A stretch of DNA of 64,000 bases from the NCBI GenBank assembly GCA_016180645.1, contig JACPAV010000002.1, forward strand, positions 174,628-238,627, read 5' to 3'. The translations under genes and the position numbers were made by a program. Origin of the DNA: Nitrospirota bacterium. GTDB lineage: Bacteria; JACPQY01. Below the pieces are notes generated by a model. It was not told where the DNA came from. It searched no databases and saw only the letters and a program-made list of their open reading frames with translations. Within the stretch, counting starts at the first letter, position 1. Every line of letters starts with the position of its first letter. Positions 4,118 through 58,848 of this stretch are shown here, piece by piece.

Positions 4118-4624
4118 TCAGCAGGGCTCGACGGACCGCGGCTCGACTTCAACCGCCACGGATTGACCGAGCAGGTCTATCGAGACGATCAGGACGCCTT
4201 TCTTGTCGCAGTTCCTGACGAACTGACCGGCCAGACCTCTCAGAGGACCCCGCGTTACACAGACCACATCCCCCCCCCTGAGATAGGGGTGGGGCCGGGG
4301 CAGACCGTTGCCTAGAAGTTGCCTGACGGCCCCAATCTGATCTTCCGGAATCGCCTCAGGCCGAGCGGGATCGTACCCGATCAAGTCCACCACTCCATGG
4401 GTTTTCTTTGCGTCAAGCCAGTCCTCATAGCTCTCCTCGCATTGGAGAAAAACGTACCCCGGGAAAAGTGGGCGATTCGTCTCTACCTCACGGGATCGAA
4501 TCCAGCGCGAAGCCCGATAGGTGGGGAAAAAAACCTCGGGGAATCGATTCTTCAGAGCACCGGCGACTGCGGCCTCGTGATTGGAGCGTGTCCTTGCTGC
4601 GTACCATTCCATGGTCACTCGCAA
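4118..4624 (-). CDS. NusG-paralog transcription antiterminator (RfaH/UpxY/LoaP-like)
   Basis: N-terminal NGN domain (WYAARTRSNHE...FPEVFFP) and C-terminal KOW-like segment (GDVVCVTRGPLRGLAGQFV); 168 aa; sits at head of a long polysaccharide-type operon. Confidence 0.75.
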   Translation of the reverse strand: MRVTMEWYAARTRSNHEAAVAGALKNRFPEVFFPTYRASRWIRSREVETNRPLFPGYVFLQCEESYEDWLDAKKTHGVVDLIGYDPARPEAIPEDQIGAVRQLLGNGLPRPHPYLRGGDVVCVTRGPLRGLAGQFVRNCDKKGVLIVSIDLLGQSVAVEVEPRSVEPC

Positions 4625-12381: not shown

Positions 12382-13470
12382 TCATCGCGATTCGGCAAGG
12401 GTCGCAGACGGGCCCGGGCGCCGATCTCCCCAGATCCTCGGTCGACGGGGCTCTTGGGGTTCGAGGCCCGGCCGGCGTCCCACACAGGCATAGACTTCAC
12501 GCACGAGACTCATGATATGGGCGGCCTCCGGGAGCGTGCCGTGCGTTGGGGATCGCCCTTCGAGGATGGAGTCGACGAATTCAAACGTTTCTTTCTTCCA
12601 TGAATCGTCCCGATCGAAGTAGATGATTTCCTCCCGAGGATTGCCCAGGGCCAGCGCCTCGTCTTCGAATTGGCGCCGACCGACCACCAGTTGTTCCCGC
12701 CCATAACTGCCTGTCTGGGACAGGAGGCCCGAGAGAACCAAGTACCCGTCCCTGCACCCGACCTCGACTCGAAAGGTATGCTTCCAGAGGGTCGCGGACG
12801 AGTGCAGGAAAGCCGGGACTCCCCGTTCCGATTCGAGAAGCACGAAGGCATTGTCCTCCACCCCGCATCCCCAGAATGAATCGCGGAGAACGGCCTGAAC
12901 CACCCTCATCGGGCCGCAGAAAAATTGAAAGAGATCCAGCATGTGGACTCCCTGGTCCAGCAGGATTCCCCCCCCCGACACCTCGTATCGATTCCGCCAA
13001 TTTTCCCGATAGTTCAATCCGCCGGACTTGCCGTAGGTGGCCTTAAGGTGAATGACCTCCCCCAACCCGCCTTCTCCCAGAAATGCCTTCGCCGCCTGGA
13101 CGGATGGGTGGAGCCTGTGGTTGAACCCGAAGACGATCCTCCGACGGGTCTTCCCCGACACGGCCTCTGCGATCCGAGAAAAATCCTCCCAGTTCCGGCC
13201 CGGCGGTTTCTCACAAAAGACATTTCCGCACCGTTCCAACGCTTCCACGCAGAGGTCTACGGTCACATCGTTCGGTGTGCAGACAAACGCCGCGCCTACG
13301 TCGCTCCAGTCTACCTCCTCCGAGGACGTCACCCAGGCCACATCCCCGCCGGTCACCGGGACAGGACCGGCAGGCTCCACGATCCAGATCCTGCCGACGC
13401 GCGGATGTTCCCGGAGAACCCGATGGCGAATTTTCCCCATGTATCCGAATCCGAAAATGACGCAGTTCAC
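12382..13470 (-). CDS. Gfo/Idh/MocA family oxidoreductase (second paralog)
   Basis: MNCVIFGFGYMGKIRH Rossmann start, VCTPND and EKPPG motifs; 362 aa. Confidence 0.7.
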   Translation of the reverse strand: MNCVIFGFGYMGKIRHRVLREHPRVGRIWIVEPAGPVPVTGGDVAWVTSSEEVDWSDVGAAFVCTPNDVTVDLCVEALERCGNVFCEKPPGRNWEDFSRIAEAVSGKTRRRIVFGFNHRLHPSVQAAKAFLGEGGLGEVIHLKATYGKSGGLNYRENWRNRYEVSGGGILLDQGVHMLDLFQFFCGPMRVVQAVLRDSFWGCGVEDNAFVLLESERGVPAFLHSSATLWKHTFRVEVGCRDGYLVLSGLLSQTGSYGREQLVVGRRQFEDEALALGNPREEIIYFDRDDSWKKETFEFVDSILEGRSPTHGTLPEAAHIMSLVREVYACVGRRPGLEPQEPRRPRIWGDRRPGPSATLAESR

Positions 13471-15170
13471 GCCGCTCCTCCACGGTGCGTGAATCCCGCC
13501 GCCTCGAGAAAGGTCGAAATCGAACGCTCCGTCACGAGCCCCAAGTAGGTTTCAACATATTTCAGGGCATTCTCCCAAGCCCCGGGATCGGGCCTGTAGT
13601 CCGGCTGGAAGGCGGTGTCCAACACCTCGGCCAGCGCGCCGGGTGACTCCGTCCAAAGCCGCCATTCGTTCATGCCCGCAAGGGGATCGCCGGAATGGGC
13701 GGATTGGCCCCTCAGATAGACCGGCCGCAATCCCTGGAGCACCGCATGGAGCGCCGCGGAGGAGCCTCGATAGATGACGAAGGAAGACCGCGCAAAGTCC
13801 TCCTCGACCGGTCTCTCGGAGATCTCCAGATTGGGCCATTTCCGGGCGGACTCTCGTACGCTCGCCAAGACCCGGCGGTCTGGAAGCATGGGGTGTGCCC
13901 TGAGAATAAATTCGCGGTCCGGGAATCGGCGGGCGCACTCCTCCGCCGCGCGATAGAAATCGTCCACTTCCGTCTCCAATCCCTCCGGAACGAAGAGGAC
14001 CGCGCCGAGGTTGGACCGTGGCTGAGACGCTCCCGATCGGAGCCGCCGCCGACAACTTCCGAACCGAATCAGGTCAATTCCGTGGACGTCGTGTCCGGAA
14101 CGCATCGCGGCCAGGGTCTCTTCCCCCAGGCACAAGACCAAGTCGGGTGTGGAACCGGGCCCCAGTTCCTTCGTGGGTCGGATCAACGACAAGGACTCGG
14201 GAAAAAGCATCGTGTGCGCGTAGCCGGCAATTCGCGTGGCCGGCGAGATCTCCTTGATTCCCCGGCCCGCGCACTTCTCCCAACCGTGCCCTTCATAGAG
14301 GGTCAGGAACACGCGGGGACTCCATCGACGGGCGACCTCCCGGCCGATCCAGTAGAACAGGCCGTTGCGATGGGGAAGAAGCCCCAGGCAATCCTGACTC
14401 GCTTGGCGGCAGAGTCCGCGTTCCACGGGGTCGGTCGCGCGCGAGGCTTCCCGCGCCAATCGCCAGGACCATTTCGTTTGGAGGATGGCCATTTGAATCG
14501 GCGCCGACGGCGGCACGAGGGCCACTTCCGCCATCGCGTGCTTCTCCTTCGTCGACAGACGGGATCGGGCAAAAGCGTGAGGATCTCCGCTTGATCCGTC
14601 TCCGCATATCATCAGCGTCCGCACGCCCTTCCGCTCGAGCCTCCCTTGGAGATCACCAAAATAAAAATCGCTGCCGTCCTCCGCCCGGGCCGGGCCATAA
14701 CACCAAGTCTTGATTACAACGTCGAAGTTTCTTCGCGTAAGCTCTTGAATCTCGCGCCTCTGCGAGGCCCGGATTGTCCGAACGGTTTTCCCCGTGCGGA
14801 GCGCGAACCGCCACAGGGTCCGGGTTGAAGACCAAATGCTCCGGAGGGAAAAGGAACCGGCCTTCCCCGCGGCTTGGAGGACTGCATCCGGCCCGCCCTC
14901 CTGCGTCAGAACGGATTCCTGAACGGCGTGGACGGGATGTTTGAGATACAACCAGGGGATAGCCATGACGGGTAGGACCGGAAACCTTCGCCTGATCCGT
15001 TCAAGGACGAGACCCAATTGATGCAGGTCGGGGGACACCGCCGGACCCGATTCCCACCGTCCTGAAAGCTCGCGCCCGGCGCGATTCGGGACGGCCCCGC
15101 CCAACCCCCGCCCAACGGCGTCGGCCATGGCGGTGGGTGTTGAGAGTGGAGCTAGGTCCACCATCCCCAT
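13467..15170 (-). CDS. hypothetical protein, possibly TagF-like transferase (HP motif)
   Basis: 567 aa; contains FILRAHPMLPD resembling the HP motif seen in the two TagF-like paralogs at 34212-37046 and 38749-40122. No clear RBS; start uncertain. Confidence 0.35.
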   Translation of the reverse strand: MGMVDLAPLSTPTAMADAVGRGLGGAVPNRAGRELSGRWESGPAVSPDLHQLGLVLERIRRRFPVLPVMAIPWLYLKHPVHAVQESVLTQEGGPDAVLQAAGKAGSFSLRSIWSSTRTLWRFALRTGKTVRTIRASQRREIQELTRRNFDVVIKTWCYGPARAEDGSDFYFGDLQGRLERKGVRTLMICGDGSSGDPHAFARSRLSTKEKHAMAEVALVPPSAPIQMAILQTKWSWRLAREASRATDPVERGLCRQASQDCLGLLPHRNGLFYWIGREVARRWSPRVFLTLYEGHGWEKCAGRGIKEISPATRIAGYAHTMLFPESLSLIRPTKELGPGSTPDLVLCLGEETLAAMRSGHDVHGIDLIRFGSCRRRLRSGASQPRSNLGAVLFVPEGLETEVDDFYRAAEECARRFPDREFILRAHPMLPDRRVLASVRESARKWPNLEISERPVEEDFARSSFVIYRGSSAALHAVLQGLRPVYLRGQSAHSGDPLAGMNEWRLWTESPGALAEVLDTAFQPDYRPDPGAWENALKYVETYLGLVTERSISTFLEAAGFTHRGGAA

Positions 15171-15264
15171 GCGGTCGGGTGTGTGGATGGGATGGGAGAC
15201 GGAAGGCGTGCTCCGCGTCCCTGGCGCACTTTGTATCTTCGCATCATCCTTGAGCTTATCCTAG

Positions 15265-15293
15265 ATTATAGTTTCAGGTTGAGAGCCTGTCAA
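15265..15293 (-). promoter_or_regulatory. consensus sigma70-type promoter for the leftward operon: TTGACA-N17-TATAAT
   Basis: Minus-strand reading gives TTGACAGGCTCTCAACCTGAAACTATAAT, about 90 nt upstream of the ATG at 15170. Confidence 0.5.
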
Positions 15294-15357
15294 GGCGCGA
15301 TCCTTGTTTCCAAGCACCCCTAAAGTCGCGGCCCCAGCGTCCGAACATCCCCCTATA

Positions 15358-15378
15358 TGTTCGTTCATCAAACGAACA
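15358..15378. promoter_or_regulatory. perfect inverted repeat TGTTCGTT-CATCA-AACGAACA between divergent promoters (candidate operator)
   Basis: 8-bp arms are exact reverse complements with a 5-bp spacer; located between the two consensus promoters. Confidence 0.4.
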
Positions 15379-15398
15379 AACTTTAGGCTCGGGCCGGC

Positions 15399-15426
15399 TT
15401 GACACCGCGACATGCATCACTATAAT
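15399..15426 (+). promoter_or_regulatory. consensus sigma70-type promoter for rightward genes: TTGACA-N16-TATAAT
   Basis: TTGACACCGCGACATGCATCACTATAAT about 24 nt upstream of the GTG start at 15450, with GAAGG/AGGGAAG as possible SD. Confidence 0.5.
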
Positions 15427-15449
15427 TTTCCCCCTGAAGGCACAGGGAA

Positions 15450-16211
15450 GTGGCGCCGCTAGGAAAGAAGTCCGTACTGGTCCTCATACCCGCCCGAGGC
15501 GGGTCCAAAGGCATTCCCCACAAAAACATCGTTGATCTTTGCGGGTACCCCCTTCTGGCCTACGCGATCGCCGCCGCGCGAAAGAGCGCTTTCAACCCGC
15601 GGATCCTCGTCACCACGGACGACGAGGAAATCGCGAGAGTCGCGAGGTCGTTCGGCGCCGATGCGCCCTTTCTTAGACCCGCCGAACTGGGCCAAGACAC
15701 AAGTCCTCTCACGGTGGCCCAACTCCACGCCCTCCATTGGCTTCGCGAGCACGAAGGCTACAGGCCGGCGGCCACCGCCACCGTGCTTCCGACGTATCCG
15801 TTCGTTCGCGCGAAGACGATCGATCAGGTGATCGGGCATGCGTTGAAAGGTATGTCGGCCCGAACGGTGATTCGCACTCCGGCATCGAGTCGCCTCTTTT
15901 TTCTCGAGGATGAAGGAGTATTGAGCCGCGTCCAATTCCGAACGCGATCCAAGCGGTGGTATCTGGGTACGGCCGCCGCGGGGGCCGTGCGGTACTTCCC
16001 CTCCTTTGATCCCGCGGCCATGAACGAGCGCGAGATCCTCCGTCTCATGAAACGATATGCGACCCGTCTCCGGAACTTGGGGATCAACACCCGAGGGCAT
16101 GCCACCATCGAGGTGACTTGGGTTGAAGCCGTGGACATCGATACGCCTCGTGAGCTGACCCTGGCCCGAAAACTGATCGCCTCGGGCGTAAGGCCTGCCC
16201 TTCTTCAATGA
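15450..16211 (+). CDS. CMP-nonulosonate cytidylyltransferase, NeuA family (second copy)
   Basis: VLIPARGGSKGIPHKNI motif; GTG start; 253 aa. Confidence 0.75.
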   Translation: MAPLGKKSVLVLIPARGGSKGIPHKNIVDLCGYPLLAYAIAAARKSAFNPRILVTTDDEEIARVARSFGADAPFLRPAELGQDTSPLTVAQLHALHWLREHEGYRPAATATVLPTYPFVRAKTIDQVIGHALKGMSARTVIRTPASSRLFFLEDEGVLSRVQFRTRSKRWYLGTAAAGAVRYFPSFDPAAMNEREILRLMKRYATRLRNLGINTRGHATIEVTWVEAVDIDTPRELTLARKLIASGVRPALLQ

Positions 16212-16945
16212 GTGCGATCGATTCCACCCTGGTCTTTTGCGCCGTGGTTCGACCCGGCACGTTCTGGAGCGTAGGCCCCCACTGGCGGTCGGCCCTGGCC
16301 AACGTTACGGGCCGGGCCTTGGAAGTTCACCACACTCTCCACCCCTTCCGCACGAATTTCGTCAGCGACTCAATGGACATGCTCCGGGAAGCGGCCGGGC
16401 TCCTATCCGGCCATGGGGTCCGCTTTTGCCGTTCGAACTCGCCGGCCAAGGCCCTCCGACGGCTGGCGCCGAAGAAGACCGAGGGGACGCTGATGGTCGT
16501 AAACCCCTTCTTCTGCTTTATCGAGCCGGGGGCCCTCTTGACGGCCCTGCGGCGACAAGGGGAGGCCCAGCAAATCCATGCGACCGTCCGCCGGCCGGAT
16601 CCTCATCCCCTTCATTTCTGCCATGAACGACGGATTCCCCAGGGGCGGGGCAAGTACGTTTGCGCGATCCACACCAATCAGTGGTACAACTACAGCCTCT
16701 ACTTCTCTCACAAGGGCAAGAATTTCGAATTCCGCCGGCAGAACTACCCGACGGTGCATGAAGCATGCAGCGCCATGACCGTCTTTCCATACTCGCTCGT
16801 AAATTCGTGGGAGCGATCCCTGAGGTCCGGACGATTCCGCGCCCTTCGACTCGAGGAGCCCGCCAGTCTGGATGCCTCCTACGAGCGGGATTTCTTCCTG
16901 GCCCAAGTCCTGCTGGAGGGCCGCCGGGAGGGGACGGCGGCCTGA
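16208..16945 (+). CDS. hypothetical protein
   Basis: 245-aa ORF whose ATG overlaps the upstream stop (ATGA); no motif recognised. Confidence 0.35.
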   Translation: MSAIDSTLVFCAVVRPGTFWSVGPHWRSALANVTGRALEVHHTLHPFRTNFVSDSMDMLREAAGLLSGHGVRFCRSNSPAKALRRLAPKKTEGTLMVVNPFFCFIEPGALLTALRRQGEAQQIHATVRRPDPHPLHFCHERRIPQGRGKYVCAIHTNQWYNYSLYFSHKGKNFEFRRQNYPTVHEACSAMTVFPYSLVNSWERSLRSGRFRALRLEEPASLDASYERDFFLAQVLLEGRREGTAA

Positions 16946-16946
16946 A

Positions 16947-18119
16947 TCAGCCGGGTGCGTGGCGGCTTCCCGTCCGCTCGGACACCAGACGATCCAGCGC
17001 GCGAGCCAGGTCCGGGAAGCCGATTTTCGACATCCGATCCCGCGCCCTTTCACGGCCCTTCTTGCCCATGCGCTTCCGCGCGGCGGAATCGGTTAGGAGG
17101 AACCGCAGCCGGTCCGCCAACGCGTTTACCTCGCCTACGGGGAAGAGAAGTCCGTTCAGCCCTTCGATCACCCACTCACGGACGGATGGGATGTCGGCCG
17201 ATATCACCGGCAGACCGCAGCTCATGGCCTCCAGCATCGAAACGCCCGTGGCCTCCGACTCCACGCACTTGAGGTAGACGTCCGCCGCATTGTACAGGCC
17301 GGCCATCTCCTCGTGAGCGAGATGGCCCATGAAATCCACCCGATCGAGCGCGCCCAGGTCGGCGGCCAATCGCCGGAGTGAGGGCCTCAGGCTTCCATCC
17401 CCGCAGAAGACGAGCCGGCATCCAGGCACCCGCTTCGAGAGGAGGGCGAAGGCCCGGACGGCGTCCGCCGGGCGATAGAGCGGTTCCAGATGCCGCGCCA
17501 TCAGGATCACTTTCTGATTTCCCCAACGGTACCTTTTTCTCACGGCGTTGCGGAGGGAGAGGGAGGGTCGGAAACGAGTCACATCCACCAACGCGGCGAA
17601 TACCTGGGATCGATCGGCGGCCCCGCCCAGTCGGACGACCTCGCTCAGCACGTACTCATTGTCGGCAAGAATCAGTGAAGACCGGGCCAAGGTGAACCTC
17701 CCTAGACGTCGCACCCAGGCGCGGTCCTTGGCGCGAATCAGAATGTCGCTGCCGAACACCCAGAGAGAAACCGGCCGGTAGCCGGTGAGCGCGGGCCAGG
17801 AGCCGACCGCAGGGAACCAGCCGGTGTGGATCAAATCGGGTCCGAATTGTCGCGCGATCCGAAGATACCTCAACAGCGCAGGCAGCTTGCCCGCAAAGCG
17901 ACGCCCGGAGCGCCATACCCCTTCACCGCGGATGGCGTGGTACCCCAGCCAGGTTCGGGGCACGGCGGGAGGGCAGTGCTCCTTTCCCTCCTCCTGCAAG
18001 TAGACATAGTGGAGATCGAAGCCCTCTCCGAGAAGACCTTGCAGAAAGAACCGGTCGAACGGCACCCCCATCGAGAGGTACAGAATGCGCGCGCGGGCCT
18101 GCCGCTCCTCGCCGATCAA
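16947..18119 (-). CDS. glycosyltransferase, GT4-like (GT-B fold)
   Basis: C-terminal EAMSCGLPVI (E-x7-E type) region and GDGSLR segment; 390 aa. Confidence 0.7.
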   Translation of the reverse strand: MIGEERQARARILYLSMGVPFDRFFLQGLLGEGFDLHYVYLQEEGKEHCPPAVPRTWLGYHAIRGEGVWRSGRRFAGKLPALLRYLRIARQFGPDLIHTGWFPAVGSWPALTGYRPVSLWVFGSDILIRAKDRAWVRRLGRFTLARSSLILADNEYVLSEVVRLGGAADRSQVFAALVDVTRFRPSLSLRNAVRKRYRWGNQKVILMARHLEPLYRPADAVRAFALLSKRVPGCRLVFCGDGSLRPSLRRLAADLGALDRVDFMGHLAHEEMAGLYNAADVYLKCVESEATGVSMLEAMSCGLPVISADIPSVREWVIEGLNGLLFPVGEVNALADRLRFLLTDSAARKRMGKKGRERARDRMSKIGFPDLARALDRLVSERTGSRHAPG

Positions 18120-27144: not shown

Positions 27145-27759
27145 CTACAGCTGAATGACACAAATCCCTCCCTGTTCCAGCCCCTTGACCTGTTCCAGGA
27201 TCTCGTTCTTGCGCGCGAAGGAGGTGATGATCACGCCGTCCGGGCTCAGCTCCCTGATGGAATCCGGACGCGAGACCTTCCATTGCCCGAAGGATTGCCC
27301 CCATTTGCGTTCATCGTTGTCCACCACGCCAACAATCTCCACCGGAACGTTGCGAAGGGCCGCGCTGACCACTTCTCCCGTTTCCGAGGCCCCAAACAGA
27401 ACCACTCGGCGGATATGCCCGTTCAGATGTTTCTGTACCGCCCGCTGGATGGCGCCCTTGATGTACGAATAAGCCCGCACCAGCTCGACGGACGACTCCA
27501 TCAGAAAATTCATCCTGGCTTCGTTCCCCAGTGGAGTGACTTGGTACGTCATCCTCTTTCTTGAGAGTTCCTCCTTGGCAATCCACCCCTTCCGGATGCC
27601 TTCGTCGATGTAGTAATTGACTTGGGCGCTGGAGACGCCGACCAGTCCGGACAACTTGTGTTGGCTCAAGTTCGGATTCTCGCTGAGAAAATTCAGGAGA
27701 TAGAGCAACTTAAACTTGTGTGTGGGTTTCCAGCATGAGAAGCTGGAGAATTCTTTCAT
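27145..27759 (-). CDS. winged-helix transcriptional regulator with C-terminal Rossmann/CoA-binding-like domain (Rex-like architecture)
   Basis: N-terminal wHTH-like segment (LSQHKLSGLVGVSSAQVNYYI) and C-terminal RVVLFGASETGEVV...VGVVDNDERKWG. Start set to ATG (MKEFSSF) at 27759; first gene after the AT-rich gap. Confidence 0.45.
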   Translation of the reverse strand: MKEFSSFSCWKPTHKFKLLYLLNFLSENPNLSQHKLSGLVGVSSAQVNYYIDEGIRKGWIAKEELSRKRMTYQVTPLGNEARMNFLMESSVELVRAYSYIKGAIQRAVQKHLNGHIRRVVLFGASETGEVVSAALRNVPVEIVGVVDNDERKWGQSFGQWKVSRPDSIRELSPDGVIITSFARKNEILEQVKGLEQGGICVIQL

Positions 27760-27842
27760 GTCTATTCGCAATCCTTCCTTAGTTGCGGCCCTTTCGGCAC
27801 CGGGGATTATCCCCCGGATGCTATCCTTAGCAATTCCTTTGA

Positions 27843-27871
27843 GTCTATTACAACATATGGTGGTTTGTCAA
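27843..27871 (-). promoter_or_regulatory. possible promoter for the regulator gene: TTGACA with weak -10 (TAATAG)
   Basis: Minus-strand TTGACAAACCACCATATGTTGTAATAG; overlaps the 10-mer AACGAACAAA shared with the 15371 operator region. Confidence 0.25.
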
Positions 27872-28120
27872 GCGAACGAACAAAGGAACAAGCCCCCTGC
27901 CAGGTTTCGGCAGGGGGCCCAAGGATCAACACCAACCATCCACAGATTCTCTTTCAAGTTTCGTTTGTTAACTTACTGAACAATATCGGACAGAGCTGCA
28001 ATAACTTTAGGGAGAAGTGAGGACGCGATTGTTCATGAAACAATACCAATATTGTATTGAAATTAAATATATATCTAATCGATTGGCGGAGCCTCAAGGT
28101 TCCGCAATTGAACGATTTCT

Positions 28121-29983
28121 CTACGCGCGAGAGGAGCGCATGCTCTGCTGCAGTTCAAACAGGGCATGCTCAACCAGCCTTCCCATCAACGGGATGTCTC
28201 CCACAAGATTCACAAGGAATGCCTGCCCCGATTCCAGGTGCCGCGCAAGCTGCTCCGAGCCCGACGTTGATTCGCGCCAGGGCCGAAGAACCCGCCGGAC
28301 CAAGGGTTTCGCCACCGCTGAAATCAGCCTGGAGGGAGCCGCCCGATCGGCCACATCGCTGACGAAACTGCCGATCCGCAGCCTTCGTTCCTCCAAGATC
28401 GAGGCGGCGTCTCCATCCGCGGGCCGGCGCCCTATCTCCCCCCACCTCTCGAAGAGATCTCCCATCCGGGCTGAAAATGAGTGGAGTGCTGTTCTTTCTT
28501 CCACAAGGGAGTCGTACAGCCGGCACAGGCTCTCGCGATCCACGGGGGCATCCGCGAGAAAATTCCCGGAAAGATCTCCTCCATTCCAAGCGCTGTCCCG
28601 CGGCAATGCGGCGACCTCGGACCGCAATTCGTCCAGCGTCATCCGCACCGATCCTCCGGTCTCACCACCCGCCACATCACTCAACACGACTTTGAATCCC
28701 CCCCCCTGCCGGTAGCCCGCCCCCATCTCCAAAAGGAAGCGCCTATCCGCCAATCGGTCGTACGCGCTGGGATCGGAAGCATCGGCCGGGTCGAGGTCGA
28801 CCCAGAACGTGCGGTCAAACCATGCCCCGCAAAGAACCGCGGCATCCACGGGGGCGGAGAGACCGAGAGGAAGGTGGAGAGCAGTCGAATCACCCGACAC
28901 CACCCTCTCCATCCATGCGCCAAGATCATCCTGCGCGCGCGCATACACCACCGGTCGCTCAGGGGAATCTTTGAAGGCCAGGGGATCGGCGTCCAAGGGG
29001 AGCACGGCCAGCGCCGGGTCACGAGGGGAACGGGCATCCGCCCCGAAGCGCAAGCGCGGTTGGATTCCCGATGCCGTGCCGGACGTCGCCGTCCCCTCCG
29101 CTCCGCTCCACGGACGGCGAAATGAATTTTCATAGGGTCCTGTCGCCGCGACCACGGTTCGCGCTTCGATCGCTCCCATCAGATCCGCCGGAAGACGACC
29201 GGCGCAGCCGCTGTTCAACACCACCGCGTTCAGCCAGACCTGCCGATCGGGCCGGGGCTGGACCCCGCGGCCTTTCCACAGCCACGGCAGATTCTCGAGC
29301 GAGCGGAGCAGGATCCGACGGGATTCGGTTGCCGGGATTTCCACCTGTCGCCTGAACAGGGACAACCGGCAAGCCGCTCTGCCTTGGATTCTCGCCACCC
29401 TGTCGGTGAACGATTTTGCATAGCCGGGAAGAATCAACCACGAGACCCGGAGGCCGATCCGAAGTGAAGCGTCCATCGCCTTGTTGAAGTGGGGTTCATC
29501 GTGAACGAGTACCAACCGATCTGGCACAAAGAGGCTTCCGTAGTCAATCCGGCCCATGAGGTCGGCCAGCAGGGCTCGGTCCGGCTCATACAGGATGACC
29601 TTCGCGGAGGTCCGGTCCAGAAGTTCGCGCACGTGGTAGCCCAAGCCAAGACCCACCACGAGGACCAACTCCGCACCGGTATCCACCGCCGTCTGGACAA
29701 GTCCCTTGGCCTCGAGCACAGGATGGAAGGGGCTGTGGAGGAATTCGCTCTTGTACTTGAGCGTCGGCGGTCCGGCGCGGGAGGGCAGGATGTCAACCGC
29801 CCCGACTTCACCATCGCCAAGCTCCGGGATCGAACCTCGGACAACTCGGCGGAACGCTTCGGAGTTGCTCGCCCAGCGGAGCCGGCGACGCGGGGATCCG
29901 GTCGCCGTTCCGTTGACCGTCTCCGGCGCGGAGCCGCCGGGGAGGCGTTCAGCGAGCGGCAGGTTGCCGGCCGAGCGGCTCAT
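28121..29983 (-). CDS. Maf-like (motility-associated-factor / DUF115 type) putative nonulosonate transferase, paralog 2
   Basis: ELVLVVGLGLGYHVREL aligns with VDVVVMMGVGLGYDLKE of the adjacent paralog. Start uncertain: track start 30052 overlaps the upstream gene; ATG at about 29983 chosen. Confidence 0.4.
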   Translation of the reverse strand: MSRSAGNLPLAERLPGGSAPETVNGTATGSPRRRLRWASNSEAFRRVVRGSIPELGDGEVGAVDILPSRAGPPTLKYKSEFLHSPFHPVLEAKGLVQTAVDTGAELVLVVGLGLGYHVRELLDRTSAKVILYEPDRALLADLMGRIDYGSLFVPDRLVLVHDEPHFNKAMDASLRIGLRVSWLILPGYAKSFTDRVARIQGRAACRLSLFRRQVEIPATESRRILLRSLENLPWLWKGRGVQPRPDRQVWLNAVVLNSGCAGRLPADLMGAIEARTVVAATGPYENSFRRPWSGAEGTATSGTASGIQPRLRFGADARSPRDPALAVLPLDADPLAFKDSPERPVVYARAQDDLGAWMERVVSGDSTALHLPLGLSAPVDAAVLCGAWFDRTFWVDLDPADASDPSAYDRLADRRFLLEMGAGYRQGGGFKVVLSDVAGGETGGSVRMTLDELRSEVAALPRDSAWNGGDLSGNFLADAPVDRESLCRLYDSLVEERTALHSFSARMGDLFERWGEIGRRPADGDAASILEERRLRIGSFVSDVADRAAPSRLISAVAKPLVRRVLRPWRESTSGSEQLARHLESGQAFLVNLVGDIPLMGRLVEHALFELQQSMRSSRA

Positions 29984-31817
29984 TTTCCAGCGGGGTGTCC
30001 TCAATATCGGAAAGCGCCTCCTCGATTCGGGGCGCCAGGATCTCGCAGCCATCCACAGCCTGGGAGACCCACTCCTCCAGTCGTTTGAGCGTATCCTCGT
30101 AATGAACCGTCCGCCCTCCGGCGCATCCCCTGACGCACCACTCGGCCACCAGAGATTCTCCCATGACGTGGTAGTTGAGTAGGAAGCTGGACGAAACGTA
30201 GTCGGAGATGTCGTCCAAGAGCGCCTCCACGAGGGCCTGCTCGCCGAACATCCCCGCCAATCGATGAATCGTGGTCTCGCCGCTCCGGTACCGCTGGACG
30301 CGTTCCATCTGTTCTTCCAGCAGCGGCCTGAGTTCCCGCACCCGAAACGCTTCGGCGCGCAACAGCTCCCTCAGCGCTCTCAGCTTGTCTCCATGCAACA
30401 GCGGCGACATCGTCCGACGGAAAAAGGATTTGTCCACCTTCCGCCCGAGATATCGGGGAGCGGCCTCTTCGAGCGGAACGTGCTGGAACCCCTCAATCCA
30501 GACGCCGTCGCCGGTGGCGTTGACAAGTGTAATGCCCCGGGCCGACGTCCGGGCGGCCAATTCGAACCAGTTGACCGTTTTCTCGAACTGCCTCCACGTG
30601 AGCACTTCGCCGCCCTTGTATCCCTTCACGGTGGTGAACTGGGGATCATCCTTCAGCGCCTTCGGGGGGGGCAAGGCATGCTCTCTCGAAACGCCCCGGG
30701 CGTGGGTCCGCCCGCCGGGAAAGGAGAGATCCTGCCCGGCCATGAGAATCCGATCGCATCCGAGCCGCATGGCAAAGCTGAAAGCCGTGGTGGACACGGA
30801 ATAGGCATGCGGCAACACGGCGTTGAATCCCGTCAGGTTGAAAAGCGGACGCTCGAAGGGGCTGGAGGATTCGACGTACAACCAGATCCGCGTGAGCGGG
30901 AGGTCGAACAACTTGGGGCACACCTTGAGGGGGAAGATCGCGGAAAGGGTTTCCGGAAGGTCCACCTCATCGAAGAAATCCGTCACATCGATCGCCTCAT
31001 CGCTGAAGACAAAGTCCGGGACCACTCCAGACCGTAGGAGGGGTTTGAGAGACGCATCCGTGGCCAGGAGGATCGCGCGTTCCTGCACCTCCTTCAAAAG
31101 CGGCAGATGACCGGCGAGGGACGGTCCCGCACCGATGATGATGGCCGGCAACCCCATCCCGCTCCCCTCCAATGCGGCCGCCATCGGGTATTCGACGACC
31201 CGATGGAGATTCAGGAGGTTGGTCCCCACCCATTCCCGTGCGCGGTTCTTCCAAATGCCGAGGCACATCCTCGAATTCTCGATGTCCACCGTGAAATTGG
31301 CGACAAGTTCCCGCACCTGCTCGGGGAAGAGGATCTCGTGCGCGGCGCCCACGAAAATTCTTCCCTCCAGCCCCAGCCGGAACCAGACGCGGAACGCCAG
31401 GGCCAATTCCTCCGATTTGCGGGTCAGGAACACGCGGTCCTGACGGAAGAGGTCCGAAAAGTCGTGGATCATCAGCGCGACTTTCAACAGGGGGAGTTCC
31501 GGTTCGAGAATGAGCAGGTCCTTTCCGGTCTCCCTCGATGCCTCCTTCAAATCGTAGCCGAGGCCGACTCCCATCATGACCACAACATCCACTCCCTCGC
31601 TCCTGAAGGCCATCCAGCGGGCCCGGGCCTCGGCCCCCGGATGTTCACGGCTGTGGAGAAGCACTCCCTTCCACGAGAGCGTCCACTGCCCGTTCGCGCT
31701 CTCCTCCAGGAGATGCAGCGGTGCTTCAGCTTCCTCAAGCTCCGCGGCCAGCTCCGGAAAGCGGGGCCGGAGGGCCGCCAGGTTCTTGTGAAGGCGCTCG
31801 AGGCTGGGCTTAAGCAT
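29949..31817 (-). CDS. Maf-like (motility-associated-factor / DUF115 type) putative nonulosonate transferase, paralog 1
   Basis: LPAIIIGAGPSLAGHL (GxGPSL) motif characteristic of Maf/MptE-like glycosyltransferases. Start set to ATG (MLKPSLERL) at 31817. Confidence 0.55.
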   Translation of the reverse strand: MLKPSLERLHKNLAALRPRFPELAAELEEAEAPLHLLEESANGQWTLSWKGVLLHSREHPGAEARARWMAFRSEGVDVVVMMGVGLGYDLKEASRETGKDLLILEPELPLLKVALMIHDFSDLFRQDRVFLTRKSEELALAFRVWFRLGLEGRIFVGAAHEILFPEQVRELVANFTVDIENSRMCLGIWKNRAREWVGTNLLNLHRVVEYPMAAALEGSGMGLPAIIIGAGPSLAGHLPLLKEVQERAILLATDASLKPLLRSGVVPDFVFSDEAIDVTDFFDEVDLPETLSAIFPLKVCPKLFDLPLTRIWLYVESSSPFERPLFNLTGFNAVLPHAYSVSTTAFSFAMRLGCDRILMAGQDLSFPGGRTHARGVSREHALPPPKALKDDPQFTTVKGYKGGEVLTWRQFEKTVNWFELAARTSARGITLVNATGDGVWIEGFQHVPLEEAAPRYLGRKVDKSFFRRTMSPLLHGDKLRALRELLRAEAFRVRELRPLLEEQMERVQRYRSGETTIHRLAGMFGEQALVEALLDDISDYVSSSFLLNYHVMGESLVAEWCVRGCAGGRTVHYEDTLKRLEEWVSQAVDGCEILAPRIEEALSDIEDTPLENEPLGRQPAAR

Positions 31818-32877
31818 ATCCGCCGCCCCTGAAGAGGGAGGCCTCCTTGAGAACGTCGCGCCATTGGGCGACGAAGCGGTCCATGGAAAACTGACTCTCA
31901 ACCGTCCGGCGCGCCTCCCCTCCCATCCTCGCCGCCTCTTCGGAAGAGTCGAGCAACTCGCGGAGGCGAGATCGTAGCGCGCCGACGTCCGACGTAATGT
32001 ATCCATTCACGCCGTTCCTGATCGGCGAGGACGTATTCCACGTCGAGAGGACCGGCGTGCCCGCGGCCATGGCCTCCAACATGCAAAGCGTGTACCCGTC
32101 CTCCAGCCCCTCCACGGTCGTGTTCACGAACAGACGCGCGCTTCGATAAATATCCTTCAGTTCATCGAACGACGAGGCCGATTCACTTTTCACGCCCTGG
32201 TCGTTATCCCCCACCACGCGGAGCGGAAATCCGTCGCAAATGGCCAGGAGGTCCCGCAGGCCCTCTTTCGCGCGGGAAAGGCCGTTGCACACCCTCAGCG
32301 CGCTCGCCACTTCGCCCGTGTGGTCGGGAAAATCGGAAATGTCGATGCCGTGCACAATCACGCGCGAGGGGCATCGCAGCCCCCAGTTCTTCCGCTTGAA
32401 CTCCGAGATAAAAACAAAGAAGACATTTCCGGATTTCAGGAAAAGCCTCTGCAGAGATCTCAGGAATTCCCGCTTCCGGAGGGCCTGGCCGAGAAGGTCC
32501 GTTTCGGAATAGGGGAACGCATTATGGAACACGAGCACTTTCCCGGAAGGGCTCGCGATGCACGCCAGGAGATCCTCCACATCGTGGCAAACGATCGCAT
32601 CATAGTAGGCGTCTCGGCTCCGTTCCTTCATGTCGCTCTCGGAGATCAGCCGGGCGTTGGGAGGAAGCGGGCGAAGTCGGGGATTCCACGCGCGCACGTA
32701 GCCCAAGCTGGGAATGTGCCGTTCGCAGATATCGAATTCGTGTCCCGTCCTTGCGAGGTTGCACAGATACGGTTCGTGCCGGCAGAAGGTCAGTATCCGG
32801 AGGGTTCGACGCGAGGCCCCGATGACGTTTCCATTCGTCGTCCCGGAAGCGAAGCGGAGGGGGCGCGTCGTACCCAT
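31810..32877 (-). CDS. glycosyltransferase, GT4-like
   Basis: CMLEAMAAGTPVLST motif. Start set to ATG (MGTTRPL) at 32877, adjacent to the upstream stop. Confidence 0.6.
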   Translation of the reverse strand: MGTTRPLRFASGTTNGNVIGASRRTLRILTFCRHEPYLCNLARTGHEFDICERHIPSLGYVRAWNPRLRPLPPNARLISESDMKERSRDAYYDAIVCHDVEDLLACIASPSGKVLVFHNAFPYSETDLLGQALRKREFLRSLQRLFLKSGNVFFVFISEFKRKNWGLRCPSRVIVHGIDISDFPDHTGEVASALRVCNGLSRAKEGLRDLLAICDGFPLRVVGDNDQGVKSESASSFDELKDIYRSARLFVNTTVEGLEDGYTLCMLEAMAAGTPVLSTWNTSSPIRNGVNGYITSDVGALRSRLRELLDSSEEAARMGGEARRTVESQFSMDRFVAQWRDVLKEASLFRGGGYA

Positions 32878-41855: not shown

Positions 41856-42941
41856 TCAGCGGGCGGAATTCGGTCCCGTCATGCGGAGCCCTATCCGGAG
41901 CAGCCCGCTGATCCTCGCCACCGACTTGGGCGGGAGGGCAGGATAAACGGGGATCGAAAGCGTCGTCTCGACCACCTTCTCGGCTTGGGAAAAACCTGCC
42001 GGATCCTGGCCAAGATATCGGTGGAGGAGTTCGAACCTCCGAATGGGAACCACGGTTTTCACGCCGCGGGTCTCGAGCCATTTTCTCAGGCGGTCCACCC
42101 GCCGGGACGGCGCGCGCAGCACGTACCGATAGAAGGTGGAACGGGTCCCGGCCGTTTCGAAGGGTCCGTGGGTATCGCTTCCCAACGGCAATGCCCGCAA
42201 GTAGAGGGAAGCGGCGCGGCGCCGGCGGCGGATCATCTCGGGGAGCTTGCGAAGCTGCACGCGCCCCACGGCCGCCGCGACGTCTGTCATCGCATAGTTG
42301 TATCTTACCTTGTAGGTCGGCCGCTGGTCGTAATCCCGAAGGTCTCGCGCCTGCTCAGCCCATTCCTTTCTTCGGGTAACCAGCATCCCGCCGTGACCCG
42401 TGGTCATCATCTTGGTGGCATGGAAGGAGAAGATGGAGATGTCGCCCGTAATCCCGACCCGGCGACCGCCGATCTCCGCCCCGATGGCCTGGGCACAATC
42501 TTCGATGACCGGAACGCCGAGCCGACGCACGGCATGAATGCCGGCGGGGAATCCAAACAGGTGCGGTACCACCACGACTTTCGTCCGGCGACGCAGCTTC
42601 TTCTCCACGTGATCGGCGGTCAGGTTGAAATCGCGGTCATTCACGTCGACCAGGACCGGCTTCGCGCCCACGTAGAACGCCGCGTTGAGGAGAGCTGAAC
42701 ACACGTAGGTGGGCATGATGACTTCGTCCCCACGGCCCACCCCCAGAATCTGCAACGCCAAGTGAAGCGCAGCGCTCCCACTGCTCAGAGCGACACCGTG
42801 ACAGCCCTTCCCAATCCAAGACGCAAGCTCCCGTTCAAAGGCCGCCACCTCCGGCCCGGGGGCGGGCCAGCGACGCAGAATGACCCGTCGGACGGCGTCG
42901 GCCTCTTCCTTCCCGATCCAAGGTTGATTGTGGGGAATCAT
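41856..42941 (-). CDS. pseC: DegT/DnrJ/EryC1/StrS-family PLP-dependent sugar aminotransferase (PseC-like)
   Basis: FSFHATKMMTTGHGGM contains the PLP-lysine region; context with PseB/PseI/PseG-like genes supports PseC; 361 aa. Confidence 0.7.
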   Translation of the reverse strand: MIPHNQPWIGKEEADAVRRVILRRWPAPGPEVAAFERELASWIGKGCHGVALSSGSAALHLALQILGVGRGDEVIMPTYVCSALLNAAFYVGAKPVLVDVNDRDFNLTADHVEKKLRRRTKVVVVPHLFGFPAGIHAVRRLGVPVIEDCAQAIGAEIGGRRVGITGDISIFSFHATKMMTTGHGGMLVTRRKEWAEQARDLRDYDQRPTYKVRYNYAMTDVAAAVGRVQLRKLPEMIRRRRRAASLYLRALPLGSDTHGPFETAGTRSTFYRYVLRAPSRRVDRLRKWLETRGVKTVVPIRRFELLHRYLGQDPAGFSQAEKVVETTLSIPVYPALPPKSVARISGLLRIGLRMTGPNSAR

Positions 42942-43005
42942 CCTGCGTATAACAGGTAACAGTATACTTTATGAGGATCAACCCGTAGGCTAATAAAGTA
43001 TACTG

Positions 43006-43704
43006 TCACCTGTTATACTCCTCGTAGACTTCGAGCCGCAGGTAGTAACGCTTTCCGTTCACCTCGACGAATGCATTGTCATACGGCGGAAACGTGAGGG
43101 CCCGGAGCCGATTGATGAGATCGGCGCCCCGATACGTTCGATCCAAATCAATTCGCATCAGCTCCCAGAACTCCTGATCCCGATGGTAGGTGCCCTCGCC
43201 GGAAGAAACGTCCAGCGGATTCCCCTCCCCGGATCGAATCAAGGGCCAGTGCTCCCGGAAGAGGTCGAATCCGGCGGCCTCAAGTTTCTCGTAGAGAGAT
43301 TTCCCCGTGTCGCTGAATTCAACCGCCACGCGACGTCGAGCGAAGATCGGCCCGCTGTCCACGCGACGGACCATCTTGTGAATGGAAACGCCCGCCGGCG
43401 TATTGTCGAGGATGCTCCACGCGTTGGTGTAAGTCCCCCGATTATGCGGCAGGTAGGACGTGTGCACATTGATGCATCCCAGCGGTGGCATCTCCAGATA
43501 CTTGGGCGGCACGAGAAATCGGAATCCGCAACTCACCACCAGGTCGGGCCTGAGTCGGCGGAGAAGAGGCAGTTGTTCCCGGCGCGTCAATACACAGGCA
43601 ATCTGCTCCCCTTGCTCCGCCAGCCAGCCGAGAATTCGGCTCCCGAGCCCGTTCAGGCCCAGAAAAACAAGAGTGGGGCCGGATTTGGGAGACGGACTAC
43701 GCAT
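43006..43704 (-). CDS. formyltransferase (Fmt/ArnA N-domain family)
   Basis: VVSCGFRFLVPPKYLEMPPLGCINVHTSYLPHNRG matches the formyl-transferase HxSLLPxxRG region; start set to ATG (MRSPSPK) at 43704. Confidence 0.6.
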   Translation of the reverse strand: MRSPSPKSGPTLVFLGLNGLGSRILGWLAEQGEQIACVLTRREQLPLLRRLRPDLVVSCGFRFLVPPKYLEMPPLGCINVHTSYLPHNRGTYTNAWSILDNTPAGVSIHKMVRRVDSGPIFARRRVAVEFSDTGKSLYEKLEAAGFDLFREHWPLIRSGEGNPLDVSSGEGTYHRDQEFWELMRIDLDRTYRGADLINRLRALTFPPYDNAFVEVNGKRYYLRLEVYEEYNR

Positions 43705-50351: not shown

Positions 50352-50366
50352 GGGGTCTCGCTCAGT

Positions 50367-58777: not shown

Positions 58778-58848
58778 ATCCCTCCGGCCTCGGATTCGCG
58801 GCCGTTTCCCGGATTGTCGAATTGTATTCTTTAGGATACAATTACTCC

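What the first reader, a model, noticed from the sequence alone, without database searches (positions are those of the whole stretch)
15171..15449. Divergent pair of consensus sigma70 promoters with a perfect palindrome between them
TTGACA-N17-TATAAT on the minus strand (about 15265-15293) and TTGACA-N16-TATAAT on the plus strand (about 15399-15426) flank TGTTCGTT-CATCA-AACGAACA (about 15358-15378). Perfect consensus hexamers are uncommon in GC-rich genomes and suggest strong, regulated expression of both arms of the glycan island from one control region.
Basis: seen in the sequence. Interest (0 to 1): 0.5.

Follow-up and report, generated by a model that had tools for sequence, protein, structure and literature searches.

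The report
Divergent consensus promoters with shared operator
A 279-base gap in a flagellin-sugar gene island of an uncultured Nitrospirae bacterium holds two textbook-perfect promoters pointing in opposite directions, and between them a palindrome that recurs at other promoters of the island; this is an ordinary kind of control region in an unusually clean form.

Summary
The only two perfect TTGACA-N16/17-TATAAT matches in the 64-kb window both lie in the gap 15171-15449, one per strand. About 5e-5 are expected in a gap this size. Each is well placed to drive its flanking gene. All five matches of at least 10/12 in the window are intergenic, and their position and strand suit a downstream gene, so these are very probably real housekeeping-sigma promoters.

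The palindrome 15358-15378 is exact. Taken alone it is unremarkable: about 0.2 such inverted repeats are expected per gap. It does, however, match a box, YGTTC-N7-KAAC-RAAC. That box also sits after a conserved sigma-28-type promoter and over the -35 of the promoter of a wHTH+Rossmann (MarR/Rex-like) regulator gene 12.5 kb away. It also occurs beside the homologous gene on contigs from two related organisms.

The palindrome lies inside a larger 69-bp dyad (15319-15387), whose left half looks like a sigma-28-type promoter.

The palindrome overlaps neither consensus promoter (about -65 and -110). The "right arm" is only a two-gene unit. The gap cannot be compared across relatives.

Verdict: a real divergent promoter region with a probable shared operator, of a known kind. 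Interest is low to moderate.

The parts
15265..15293 (-). P(-): perfect sigma-70-type promoter TTGACA-N17-TATAAT. The -35 is at 15293-15288 and the -10 at 15270-15265. The predicted start site is about 15258. It is predicted to drive the leftward operon that begins with the 567-aa gene.
15399..15426 (+). P(+): perfect sigma-70-type promoter TTGACA-N16-TATAAT. The predicted start site is about 15433, giving a leader of about 17 nt with GAAGG 9 nt before GTG 15450.
15358..15378 (.). It comprises overlapping copies of the island box YGTTC-N7-KAAC-RAAC: exact at 15359-15378 (-) and 15362-15381 (+), and with one mismatch at 15358-15377 (+).
15319..15387 (.). A 69-bp hyphenated dyad, CCTAAAGT-N15-CGAACAT-N8-ATGTTCG-N16-ACTTTAGG, centred at about 15353. 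It shares its inner right arm with the palindrome. The 105 bp between the two -35 hexamers fold as single-stranded DNA with z = -2.85.
15321..15347 (+). Sigma-28 (FliA)-like element TAAAGT-N13-TCCGAACA. Its 8-mer CCTAAAGT and its TCCGA sit at the same spacing as in the conserved sigma-28-type promoter at 28011-27983 (-). The 3' part of the -10 deviates (ACA in place of TAT). The box follows 10 nt further downstream than in the canonical module.
   Evidence: nhmmer E = 0.31, third best hit in the window
13467..15170 (-). First gene of the leftward operon. It is 567 aa (553 aa if it starts at 15128, as NCBI calls it), has no Pfam domain, and shows a faint match to TIGR04326 surface-carbohydrate biosynthesis proteins. 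It is followed, with overlaps or short gaps, by a GFO/IDH/MocA oxidoreductase, a B12-radical SAM enzyme, a methyltransferase and a SIS-domain protein (to 8995).
15450..16945 (+). The rightward two-gene unit: a PseF-like cytidylyltransferase (15450-16211) and a 245-aa protein with no family match (16208-16945). Its stop lies 1 bp from the stop of the convergent glycosyltransferase gene 16947-18119 (-), with no terminator between them.
27842..28011 (-). Related control region 12.5 kb away, read on the minus strand in this order: a sigma-28-type promoter (28009-27983), a box (27982-27963), about 40 nt of transcribed sequence, an intrinsic terminator (27921-27889), a second box with one mismatch (27882-27863) overlapping the -35 of a 10/12 sigma-70-type promoter (27871-27842). 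The sigma-28 promoter, the first box and the 16-mer before the terminator are conserved in L008 and L009.
27145..27771 (-). Candidate binder of the box: a 204-208-aa protein with a winged-helix domain (MarR_EPS-like) and a Rossmann-like domain. Its best whole-chain fold matches are Rex-family repressors.

Best explanation
The gap 15171-15449 is a back-to-back divergent promoter region in a nonulosonic-acid and Maf (flagellin-glycosylation type) gene island of an uncultured Nitrospirae bacterium. Two consensus promoters for the housekeeping sigma factor fire outwards, with start sites about 175 bp apart.

P(-) restarts transcription of the leftward biosynthetic operon, which runs at least 15170 to 8995. 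P(+) drives a two-gene unit, a PseF-like cytidylyltransferase plus an unknown protein. That unit is the only plus-strand unit found inside the island, which is otherwise on the minus strand and spans about 47 kb.

The untranscribed 105 bp between the two -35 hexamers carry a palindromic double copy of an island-specific operator box, YGTTC-N7-KAAC-RAAC. A dimeric DNA-binding regulator most likely binds it. The best candidate is the island's own wHTH+Rossmann (MarR/Rex-like) protein, whose own promoter region carries the same box twice. This would link both units to the same signal, possibly a nucleotide or nucleotide-sugar, as the regulator gene.

Shown: the motifs, their statistics, their geometry, and the recurrence and conservation of the box. 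Inferred: promoter activity, protein binding, the identity of the binder, and the sign of regulation.
For: Promoters: these are the only two 12/12 matches in 64 kb, against 0.00 in shuffles. The expectation is 4.6e-5 per gap, and TATAAT is otherwise absent from the window. All five matches of at least 10/12 are intergenic, carry a perfect TTGACA, and are placed and oriented to serve a downstream gene. The sequence is identical in independent assemblies from two runs. No plasmid or vector match was found.

Context: the island holds two NeuB genes, at least four CTP_transf_3 genes, Maf/MptE-like genes, DegT, glycosyltransferases and a NusG paralogue. The source is a Nitrospirae MAG.

Operator: the box was defined from four sites outside the gap (window 27963-27982; L008 6087 and 6166; L009 501). 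It matches the gap exactly in two registers, against 0.00 exact matches in 100 shuffles. With up to one mismatch there are 6 matches against 0.25-0.47 expected, and 5 of the 6 are in the two control regions. The box next to the regulator gene is conserved across three organisms at 66-68% protein identity.

Regulator: the model has pLDDT 85. Its best whole-chain fold matches are Rex-family repressors, its N-terminal domain is MarR-like, and its C-terminal domain resembles the Rossmann fold of nucleotide-sugar dehydrogenases. It also scores against TIGR04176 MarR_EPS, below that family's cut-off.
Against: There are no transcription data. The gap itself cannot be compared across species, because neither flanking gene has an orthologue above about 41% full-length identity, and the distant homologues sit in a different gene order. 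The palindrome alone is at chance frequency. The box pattern was chosen post hoc: the N7 positions shared by the other sites are not shared by the gap. An unbiased profile of the orthologous modules finds the gap only at E = 0.31. The box lies at about -65 and -110, outside both core promoters, so how it would control perfect-consensus promoters is unclear. L009 lacks a second box at its regulator promoter. The link between this particular protein and the box rests only on adjacency.
Confidence: 0.6

Rival explanations
1. This is a dual-sigma hub. The 69-bp dyad is not only an operator. It contains one sigma-28 (FliA)-type promoter, and possibly two face-to-face. The plus-strand one is TAAAGT-N13-TCCGAACA at 15321-15347, with a start site near 15355. 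It reads through the box and P(+) into the cytidylyltransferase gene. The unit would then have a housekeeping promoter plus a flagellar late-class promoter in tandem. This resembles the tandem upstream of the NusG paralogue (sigma-28-like 4782-4755, then a sigma-70-like 11/12 match at 4705-4676). The box would act as a roadblock or operator at about +3 to +27 of the sigma-28 transcript.
For: CCTAAAGT occurs three times in the window against 0.31 expected: twice in the gap as an inverted repeat, and once as the -35 of the conserved sigma-28-type promoter. TAAAGT-N13-15-CGA occurs only at 15321 and 28009, both times as TAAAGT-N13-TCCGA. The -10-to-(-35) distance between the tandem promoters is 51 nt in the gap and 49 nt upstream of the NusG paralogue. 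The gap is the third best window hit of the profile built from sigma-28 modules. In the gap the box starts 10 nt further from the -10 than in the canonical module, which is one helical turn. Maf genes imply a flagellar context.
Against: The -10 is TCCGAACA rather than GCCGATAT/A, only 5 of 8. At that stringency (9/12) the window has fewer matches than shuffles give: 12 against 21. The minus-strand partner matches the -10 consensus at only 4 of 8, with spacing off by one. Face-to-face overlapping promoters would exclude each other. No flagellin or fliA gene was seen in the window or in the 8.5 kb beyond it.
Confidence: 0.3
2. The promoters exist for transcriptional-interference reasons, and the palindrome is incidental. 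The plus-strand two-gene unit faces oncoming transcription from the upstream minus-strand genes, with no terminator at the 1-bp convergent junction. It therefore needs a maximal-strength promoter to be expressed. Because collisions stop read-through, the downstream minus-strand genes need their own strong promoter. On this reading no dedicated regulator acts at the palindrome.
For: The stop codons of 16208-16945 (+) and 16947-18119 (-) are 1 bp apart, and no terminator-like site lies at the junction. The unit is the only plus-strand unit found inside the minus-strand island. The palindrome alone is at chance frequency.
Against: This does not explain the recurrence of the box at the regulator gene and in related organisms, nor the CCTAAAGT inverted repeat. 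Interference itself is inferred only from gene geometry.
Confidence: 0.2
3. It is a chance or artefactual feature: AT-richer intergenic DNA that happens to contain consensus hexamers, or a vector or assembly artefact.
For: The gap is AT-richer than its surroundings (54% against about 61% G+C). The source is a metagenome-assembled genome.
Against: Even at the gap's own composition, the expectation is 4.6e-5 perfect promoters per gap, and two are present in outward orientation. The sequence is identical in assemblies from independent runs. There is no plasmid match, and no inverted repeats of an invertible element flank the region.
Confidence: 0.02

Closest known systems
Back-to-back divergent sigma-70 promoter regions with a shared operator between them (for example the E. 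coli divergent regulatory regions reviewed by Beck and Warren, 1988; from my own knowledge)
   Same: Two outward-facing -35/-10 promoters lie about 100 bp apart at their -35 elements, with a dyad-symmetric site in the shared upstream DNA, serving two functionally related transcription units.
   Different: Both promoters are 12/12 consensus, which is very rare among characterised natural promoters (textbook knowledge; no such promoter is among the classic E. coli compilations). The host is an uncultured Nitrospirae bacterium. The operator overlaps neither core promoter. No regulator has been demonstrated.
MarR-family and Rex-family repressors with palindromic operators at their own and their target promoters
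   Same: The candidate binder has a winged-helix domain plus a Rossmann-like domain, as Rex does. The box is an inverted repeat (GTTC/GAAC) with half-site centres 11 bp apart. It occurs over the -35 of the regulator's own promoter, the classic geometry of autoregulation.
   Different: Sequence similarity to MarR_EPS is below the family cut-off (35 bits against 88). There is no sequence-level match to Rex. The box differs from the Rex operator TTGTGAA-N4-TTCACAA (from memory). Binding has not been tested.
Sigma-28 / FliA (sigma-D) late flagellar promoters, TAAA-N15-GCCGATAA/T
   Same: The modules at 28009-27983 (-), L008 6059-6085 and L009 474-500 fit the consensus at 11-12 of 12 positions. The gap element shares CCTAAAGT and TCCGA at the same spacing.
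   Different: The gap's -10 ends in ACA in place of TAT. No FliA gene or flagellin gene was available to anchor the regulon.
LexA/SOS boxes built from GTTC/GAAC (Gram-positive GAAC-N4-GTTC; alphaproteobacterial and Acidobacterium GTTC-N7-GTTC; from memory)
   Same: The tetranucleotides are the same, and one variant has the same N7 spacing.
   Different: Here the orientation is GTTC-N7-GAAC, inverted and with the opposite polarity to the Gram-positive box, and not a direct repeat. The context is glycan and flagellar genes, with no DNA-repair genes nearby.

Membership tests
Sigma-70-type (housekeeping) promoter | -35 TTGACA and -10 TATAAT hexamers separated by 16-18 bp | tested here: met
   12/12 on both strands, with spacers of 17 and 16
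Sigma-70-type (housekeeping) promoter | Located upstream of a gene, oriented towards it, at a plausible distance | tested here: met
   The P(+) -10 ends 23 nt before GTG 15450. The P(-) -10 ends 95-137 nt before ATG 15170 or 15128. All five matches of at least 10/12 in the window are intergenic and placed and oriented to serve a downstream gene.
Sigma-70-type (housekeeping) promoter | A transcription start site 6-9 nt downstream of the -10, used by the housekeeping holoenzyme | not testable with these tools
   No transcriptome data for this uncultured organism
Operator of a dimeric HTH regulator (MarR/Rex-like) | Dyad-symmetric site with half-sites about one helical turn apart | tested here: met
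   GTTC-N7-GAAC lies within the perfect 8-N5-8 palindrome
Operator of a dimeric HTH regulator (MarR/Rex-like) | The same motif recurs at other promoters, including the regulator's own, more often than chance | tested here: met
   3 exact matches against 0.00 in shuffles. With up to one mismatch, 6 against 0.25-0.47. Sites lie at 27963-27982 and 27863-27882 next to gene 27145-27771, and at L008 6087 and 6166 and L009 501. Caveat: the pattern was chosen post hoc.
Operator of a dimeric HTH regulator (MarR/Rex-like) | Conservation of the site in orthologous regions of related genomes | tested here: inconclusive
   Conserved for the site next to the regulator gene. The gap itself has no orthologous region in any collection searched.
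Operator of a dimeric HTH regulator (MarR/Rex-like) | Demonstrated protein binding | not testable with these tools
   Needs EMSA, footprinting or DAP-seq
Sigma-28 / FliA promoter | TAAA-N15-GCCGATAA/T, with the CGA core at offset 21 from the T of TAAA | tested here: inconclusive
   Plus strand: TAAAGT-N13-TCCGAACA, with the -35 perfect, CCGA at the right offset and 5 of 8 in the -10. That score class is not enriched over shuffles. The specific 13-base agreement with the conserved promoter at 28009 is unique in the window. Minus strand: 4 of 8, with the offset out by one.
Invertible promoter (phase-variable inverton) | Promoter segment flanked by good inverted repeats, with both orientations found in the population | tested here: not met
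   Only weak flanking inverted repeats (78-80%). The orientation is the same in all independent contigs.
Rfam RNA families / riboswitch leader | A match to a curated covariance model | tested here: not met
   Nothing meaningful at E of 10 or less in 14800-15800 and nothing at gathering score in the whole window. The P(-) leader folds no better than shuffles, z = 0.23.

The most novel reading that the evidence does not exclude
The gap is a symmetric, three- or four-promoter, dual-sigma switch. Two perfect housekeeping promoters point outwards, and one or two sigma-28-type promoters are embedded face-to-face between them. All are gated by a palindromic double operator for a Rex-like sensor of a nucleotide or nucleotide-sugar. 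This would couple flagellin-glycan precursor synthesis to flagellar assembly in Nitrospirota. The same regulator would also gate a conserved sigma-28-driven, terminated RNA of about 85 nt upstream of its own gene.
Probability: 0.12. Interest if true: 0.55.

Novelty: new member of a known kind. Interest (0 to 1): 0.3.

Why it matters
If confirmed, the region would supply two natural, maximal-consensus promoters and a candidate operator-regulator pair from Nitrospirota, a phylum with almost no experimentally mapped promoters. It would also give a first handle on how a large flagellin-glycosylation island is controlled there: housekeeping and sigma-28-type promoters, a NusG paralogue, and a wHTH-Rossmann regulator. 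The concept is standard bacterial gene regulation. The value is as a clean, testable example and as potential parts for synthetic biology, not as a new principle.

Tried and rejected
1. Cross-species comparison of the gap failed. The 567-aa protein has no relative between 41% and 100% identity. The cytidylyltransferase has none above about 40% full-length identity. The four genome loci with distant homologues (L004-L007) have a different gene order and contain neither the palindrome nor its AACGAACA half-site.

2. The Logan contigs L001-L003 are identical to the window, so they give independent assembly support but no evolutionary information.

3. Rfam searches found nothing relevant in the gap or in the window. 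The P(-) leader has no unusual fold.

4. I first read the 3-mismatch palindrome hit at 27862-27882 as chance and as part of a terminator tail. I later re-read it as a one-mismatch copy of the box overlapping a -35.

5. GTTC-N11-GAAC alone is not enriched (2 against 0.72 expected), so I dropped it in favour of the fuller box.

6. No homology beyond the motifs was found between the gap and the NusG-upstream region.

7. The metagenome scan for the conserved sigma-28-driven RNA module gave 40 hits, none preceded by a sigma-28-type promoter and all looking random.

8. Inverton, vector contamination and LexA box were all rejected (motif architecture).

9. No motif is shared between the P(-) leader and the other leaders, so nothing suggests a NusG-paralogue recruitment (ops-like) site.

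10. The 50-aa ORF 15261-15413 (-) starts upstream of P(-) and spans the untranscribed spacer, so I do not consider it a gene.

11. Two literature searches produced nothing specific to this arrangement.

Full report
**Observation.** The region 14900-15700 was read directly. The minus strand carries TTGACA (15293-15288), 17 nt, then TATAAT (15270-15265). The plus strand carries TTGACA (15399-15404), 16 nt, then TATAAT (15421-15426). TGTTCGTT-CATCA-AACGAACA occupies 15358-15378.

The two promoters are the only perfect matches in the 64-kb window, with 0.00 expected from 100 dinucleotide shuffles. Analytically, 0.0026 are expected per window and 4.6e-5 per 279-bp gap, even at the gap's own composition. 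TATAAT occurs just twice in the window on either strand, both times here. Of the 15 TTGACA copies, 6 fall in the roughly 10% of the window that is intergenic. The promoter observation is confirmed and is far beyond chance.

The palindrome by itself is not. The window holds 49 perfect inverted repeats with 8-bp arms and loops of 12 nt or less, which is about 0.2 per gap of this size.

**Context.** The window comes from an uncultured Nitrospirae MAG. The flanking protein is NCBI HYT87_00835 on a 369,728-bp contig. The gap sequence is identical in independently assembled Logan contigs from two sequencing runs.

Positions 1 to about 47400, plus at least 8.5 kb beyond the left edge (L012), form a nonulosonic-acid and Maf island. 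It contains:
- two NeuB genes;
- at least four CTP_transf_3 cytidylyltransferases;
- DegT aminotransferases;
- PseB-like dehydratases;
- B12-radical SAM enzymes, methyltransferases and glycosyltransferases;
- Maf/MptE-like proteins;
- a NusG paralogue.

This is the gene content of a flagellin-glycosylation island. Almost everything is on the minus strand. The only plus-strand unit found within the island is 15450-16945: a PseF-like cytidylyltransferase and a 245-aa protein with no family match. Its stop codon is 1 bp from the stop codon of the convergent glycosyltransferase gene 16947-18119, with no terminator between them.

To the left of the gap, the 567-aa gene starts an operon. NCBI calls this gene as 553 aa from 15128. 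The operon's genes overlap or nearly abut down to at least 8995.

**Are the promoters real?** Four lines of evidence say yes.
- Geometry fits. The P(+) -10 ends 23 nt before GTG 15450, with GAAGG 9 nt upstream of the start codon. The P(-) -10 ends 95-137 nt before the start of the 567/553-aa gene.
- A scan of the whole window for matches of at least 10/12 found only five, against 2.8 +/- 1.5 in shuffles. All five are intergenic, all have a perfect TTGACA, and each is placed and oriented to serve a downstream gene: 4705-4676 (NusG paralogue), the two in the gap, 27871-27842 (wHTH regulator) and 50680-50653 (higBA). This organism's housekeeping holoenzyme evidently uses the canonical hexamers.
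- Neither promoter has an extended -10 TG. Both share ACTATAAT.
- There is no plasmid or vector match. No flanking inverted repeats suggest an invertible element, and the orientation is the same in all contigs.

**What the palindrome is.** A search for relatives of the island's winged-helix gene (27145-27771) found homologues at 66-68% identity on contigs L008 and L009-L011. On L008 the surrounding genes (Maf-like genes, the regulator, a NeuB fusion) are in the same order as in the window. On L009 the regulator is likewise followed by the NeuB fusion.

Aligning the DNA upstream of this gene in the three organisms revealed a conserved non-coding block. It contains, in order:
- a sigma-28/FliA-type promoter, CCTAAAGT-N11-xG/TCCGATAT, matching 11-12 of 12 consensus positions;
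- immediately after it, a conserved box (T/C)GTTCAGTAA(G/C)T(T/G)AAC(A/G)AACG;
- a variable stretch;
- an invariant 16-mer, TTGGTGTTGATCCTTG;
- a hairpin (a strong intrinsic-terminator match in the window);
- in the window and L009, a sigma-70-type promoter for the regulator gene.

L008 has a second copy of the box just upstream of the regulator's promoter. From these four sites outside the gap, the box reads YGTTC-N7-KAAC-RAAC.

In the window this pattern has three exact matches, against 0.00 in shuffles. The third is the site after the sigma-28 -10 (27963-27982). Allowing one mismatch adds 15358-15377, 27863-27882 and one site in coding DNA, making 6 against 0.25-0.47 expected. The site at 27863-27882 overlaps the -35 of the regulator's own promoter and corresponds in position to L008's second copy. 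A partial copy (TAAGTTAACGAACGA) follows a sigma-28-like promoter upstream of the NusG paralogue.

The palindrome is therefore best read as a palindromic double copy of an island-specific cis element.

Two caveats apply. I chose which columns to specify after seeing the gap. An unbiased nhmmer profile of the three orthologous modules ranks the gap third in the window, but only at E = 0.31.

**Larger symmetry and the sigma-28 question.** The palindrome is embedded in a 69-bp hyphenated dyad: CCTAAAGT (15319-15326), N15, CGAACAT, N8, ATGTTCG, N16, ACTTTAGG (15380-15387).

CCTAAAGT occurs three times in the window against 0.31 expected, and the third copy is the -35 of the conserved sigma-28-type promoter. 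TAAAGT-N13-15-CGA occurs only at 15321 and 28009, both times as TAAAGT-N13-TCCGA. The left half of the dyad thus looks like a sigma-28-type promoter reading towards the cytidylyltransferase gene. Its box is displaced 10 nt, one helical turn, further downstream than in the canonical module.

Against this reading, the -10 is TCCGAACA, only 5 of 8. That score class is not enriched over shuffles (12 observed against 21). The minus-strand partner matches at 4 of 8 with a one-base spacing error. No flagellin or fliA gene was within reach. I rate a functional sigma-28 promoter here at about 0.3.

The 105 bp between the two -35 hexamers are more self-complementary than shuffles (z = -2.85), consistent with the nested dyads.

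**Candidate binder.** The 204-208-aa protein encoded at 27145-27771 has an N-terminal HTH_24/MarR_2 domain and a weak match to TIGR04176 MarR_EPS (35 bits, cut-off 88). Its C-terminal domain is Rossmann-like, resembling the NeuD N-terminal domain.

An AlphaFold model built from six sequences has pLDDT 85. Its best whole-chain PDB matches are Rex-family repressors, which share the winged-helix plus Rossmann architecture. The TM-scores are low because the domain orientation differs. The N-terminal domain matches MarR proteins. The C-terminal domain matches the Rossmann domain of a UDP-sugar dehydrogenase, with TM 0.60 normalised to the target and rmsd 2.7 Å.

Three things make this protein the best candidate: boxes beside or upstream of its own promoter in the window and L008, a box within its upstream region in all three organisms, and an inverted repeat with half-site centres 11 bp apart. 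Nothing demonstrates binding.

**Mechanism.** Two consensus housekeeping promoters fire outwards. P(-) re-initiates the leftward biosynthetic operon, and P(+) drives the inverted two-gene unit.

The box palindrome is centred at 15368, about -65 from the P(+) start and about -110 from the P(-) start. It overlaps neither core promoter. It could act in one of three ways:
- as an upstream (class-I-like) site;
- together with the outer dyad;
- as a roadblock for the putative sigma-28 transcript.

The convergent junction without a terminator suggests one reason both promoters are maximal. P(+) must fire against oncoming transcription, and the downstream minus-strand genes then need their own promoter. 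This is inference from geometry alone.

**Comparison, novelty and verdict.** This is a member of a well-known kind: a back-to-back divergent promoter region with an intervening operator. Three things are unusual:
- both promoters are 12/12 consensus, which is very rare among characterised natural promoters (textbook knowledge);
- the host phylum is uncharted for promoter mapping;
- the promoters are combined with sigma-28-type elements.

The promoters and a regulatory palindrome hold up. "Both arms of the island" and simple control of both consensus promoters by the palindrome do not. Interest is 0.3, and the novelty class is a new member of a known kind.

Noticed in passing
window 28011-27885 (minus strand); L008 6057-6165; L009 472-600: A conserved sigma-28-type promoter is followed by a transcribed stretch of about 85 nt and then a hairpin; in the window this is a strong intrinsic-terminator match (14-pair stem, 27921-27889). 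The stretch has a conserved 5' part and an invariant 16-mer, TTGGTGTTGATCCTTG, just before the hairpin. The block lies upstream of the wHTH regulator gene in three related organisms. It could be a FliA-dependent small RNA or an attenuated leader. There is no Rfam match. The fold z-score is -2.4.
   Followed up: partly
window 42949-43017: A long hairpin with arms of about 25 bp (TATAACAGGTAACAGTATACTTTAT...ATAAAGTATACTGTCACCTGTTATA) lies between ORF 43006-43893 (-) and the DegT gene 41856-42941 (-). Its loop carries GTTGATCCT, the same 9-mer as in the invariant block of the sRNA-like element. That 9-mer also occurs three times in L009 (549, 3627, 3190).
   Followed up: no
window 4118-4624 (-), promoters at 4782-4755 and 4705-4676 (-); L012 4102-4596: A specialised NusG paralogue (Pfam NusG NGN domain, 164-168 aa) sits inside the glycan island. 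It is preceded by a tandem of a sigma-28-like promoter and an 11/12 sigma-70-like promoter, and by a partial copy of the box. It may act as an operon-specific antiterminator of the RfaH/UpxY/LoaP type.
   Followed up: partly
window 16943-16949: The stop codons of the convergent genes 16208-16945 (+) and 16947-18119 (-) are 1 bp apart, with no terminator. Convergent transcription and antisense read-through are therefore likely.
   Followed up: partly
window 28121-30052 (-) and 29949-32006 (-); L008 2447-6043: Two adjacent large Maf/MptE-like ORFs. The first has no family match in the window, but its L008 counterpart has a faint Maf_flag10_N hit. A third MptE-like gene lies beyond the left edge of the window (L012 14886-15989). 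Several flagellin glycosyltransferase paralogues are likely.
   Followed up: no
window 49013-48986 (-) and 48394-48861 (-): A sigma-28-like match (ACTAAAGT-N14-TCCGATAG, 10/12) lies upstream of a MerR/HspR-like gene. That gene is divergent from an Hsp20 gene (49372-49803).
   Followed up: no
window 15248-15153 (minus strand): The P(-) leader contains a 31-codon ORF (ATGATGCGAAGA...TAG). It starts about 11 nt after the predicted start site and ends just inside the start of the 567-aa gene. It has no convincing ribosome-binding spacing, so a leader peptide is only a possibility.
   Followed up: no
window 50040-50645 (-), 58774-59939 (+): Two toxin-antitoxin-like pairs lie outside the island. One is a higBA-type pair with a 10/12 promoter at 50680-50653. 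The other pairs an Xre-type HTH protein with an AbiEii-like nucleotidyltransferase.
   Followed up: no
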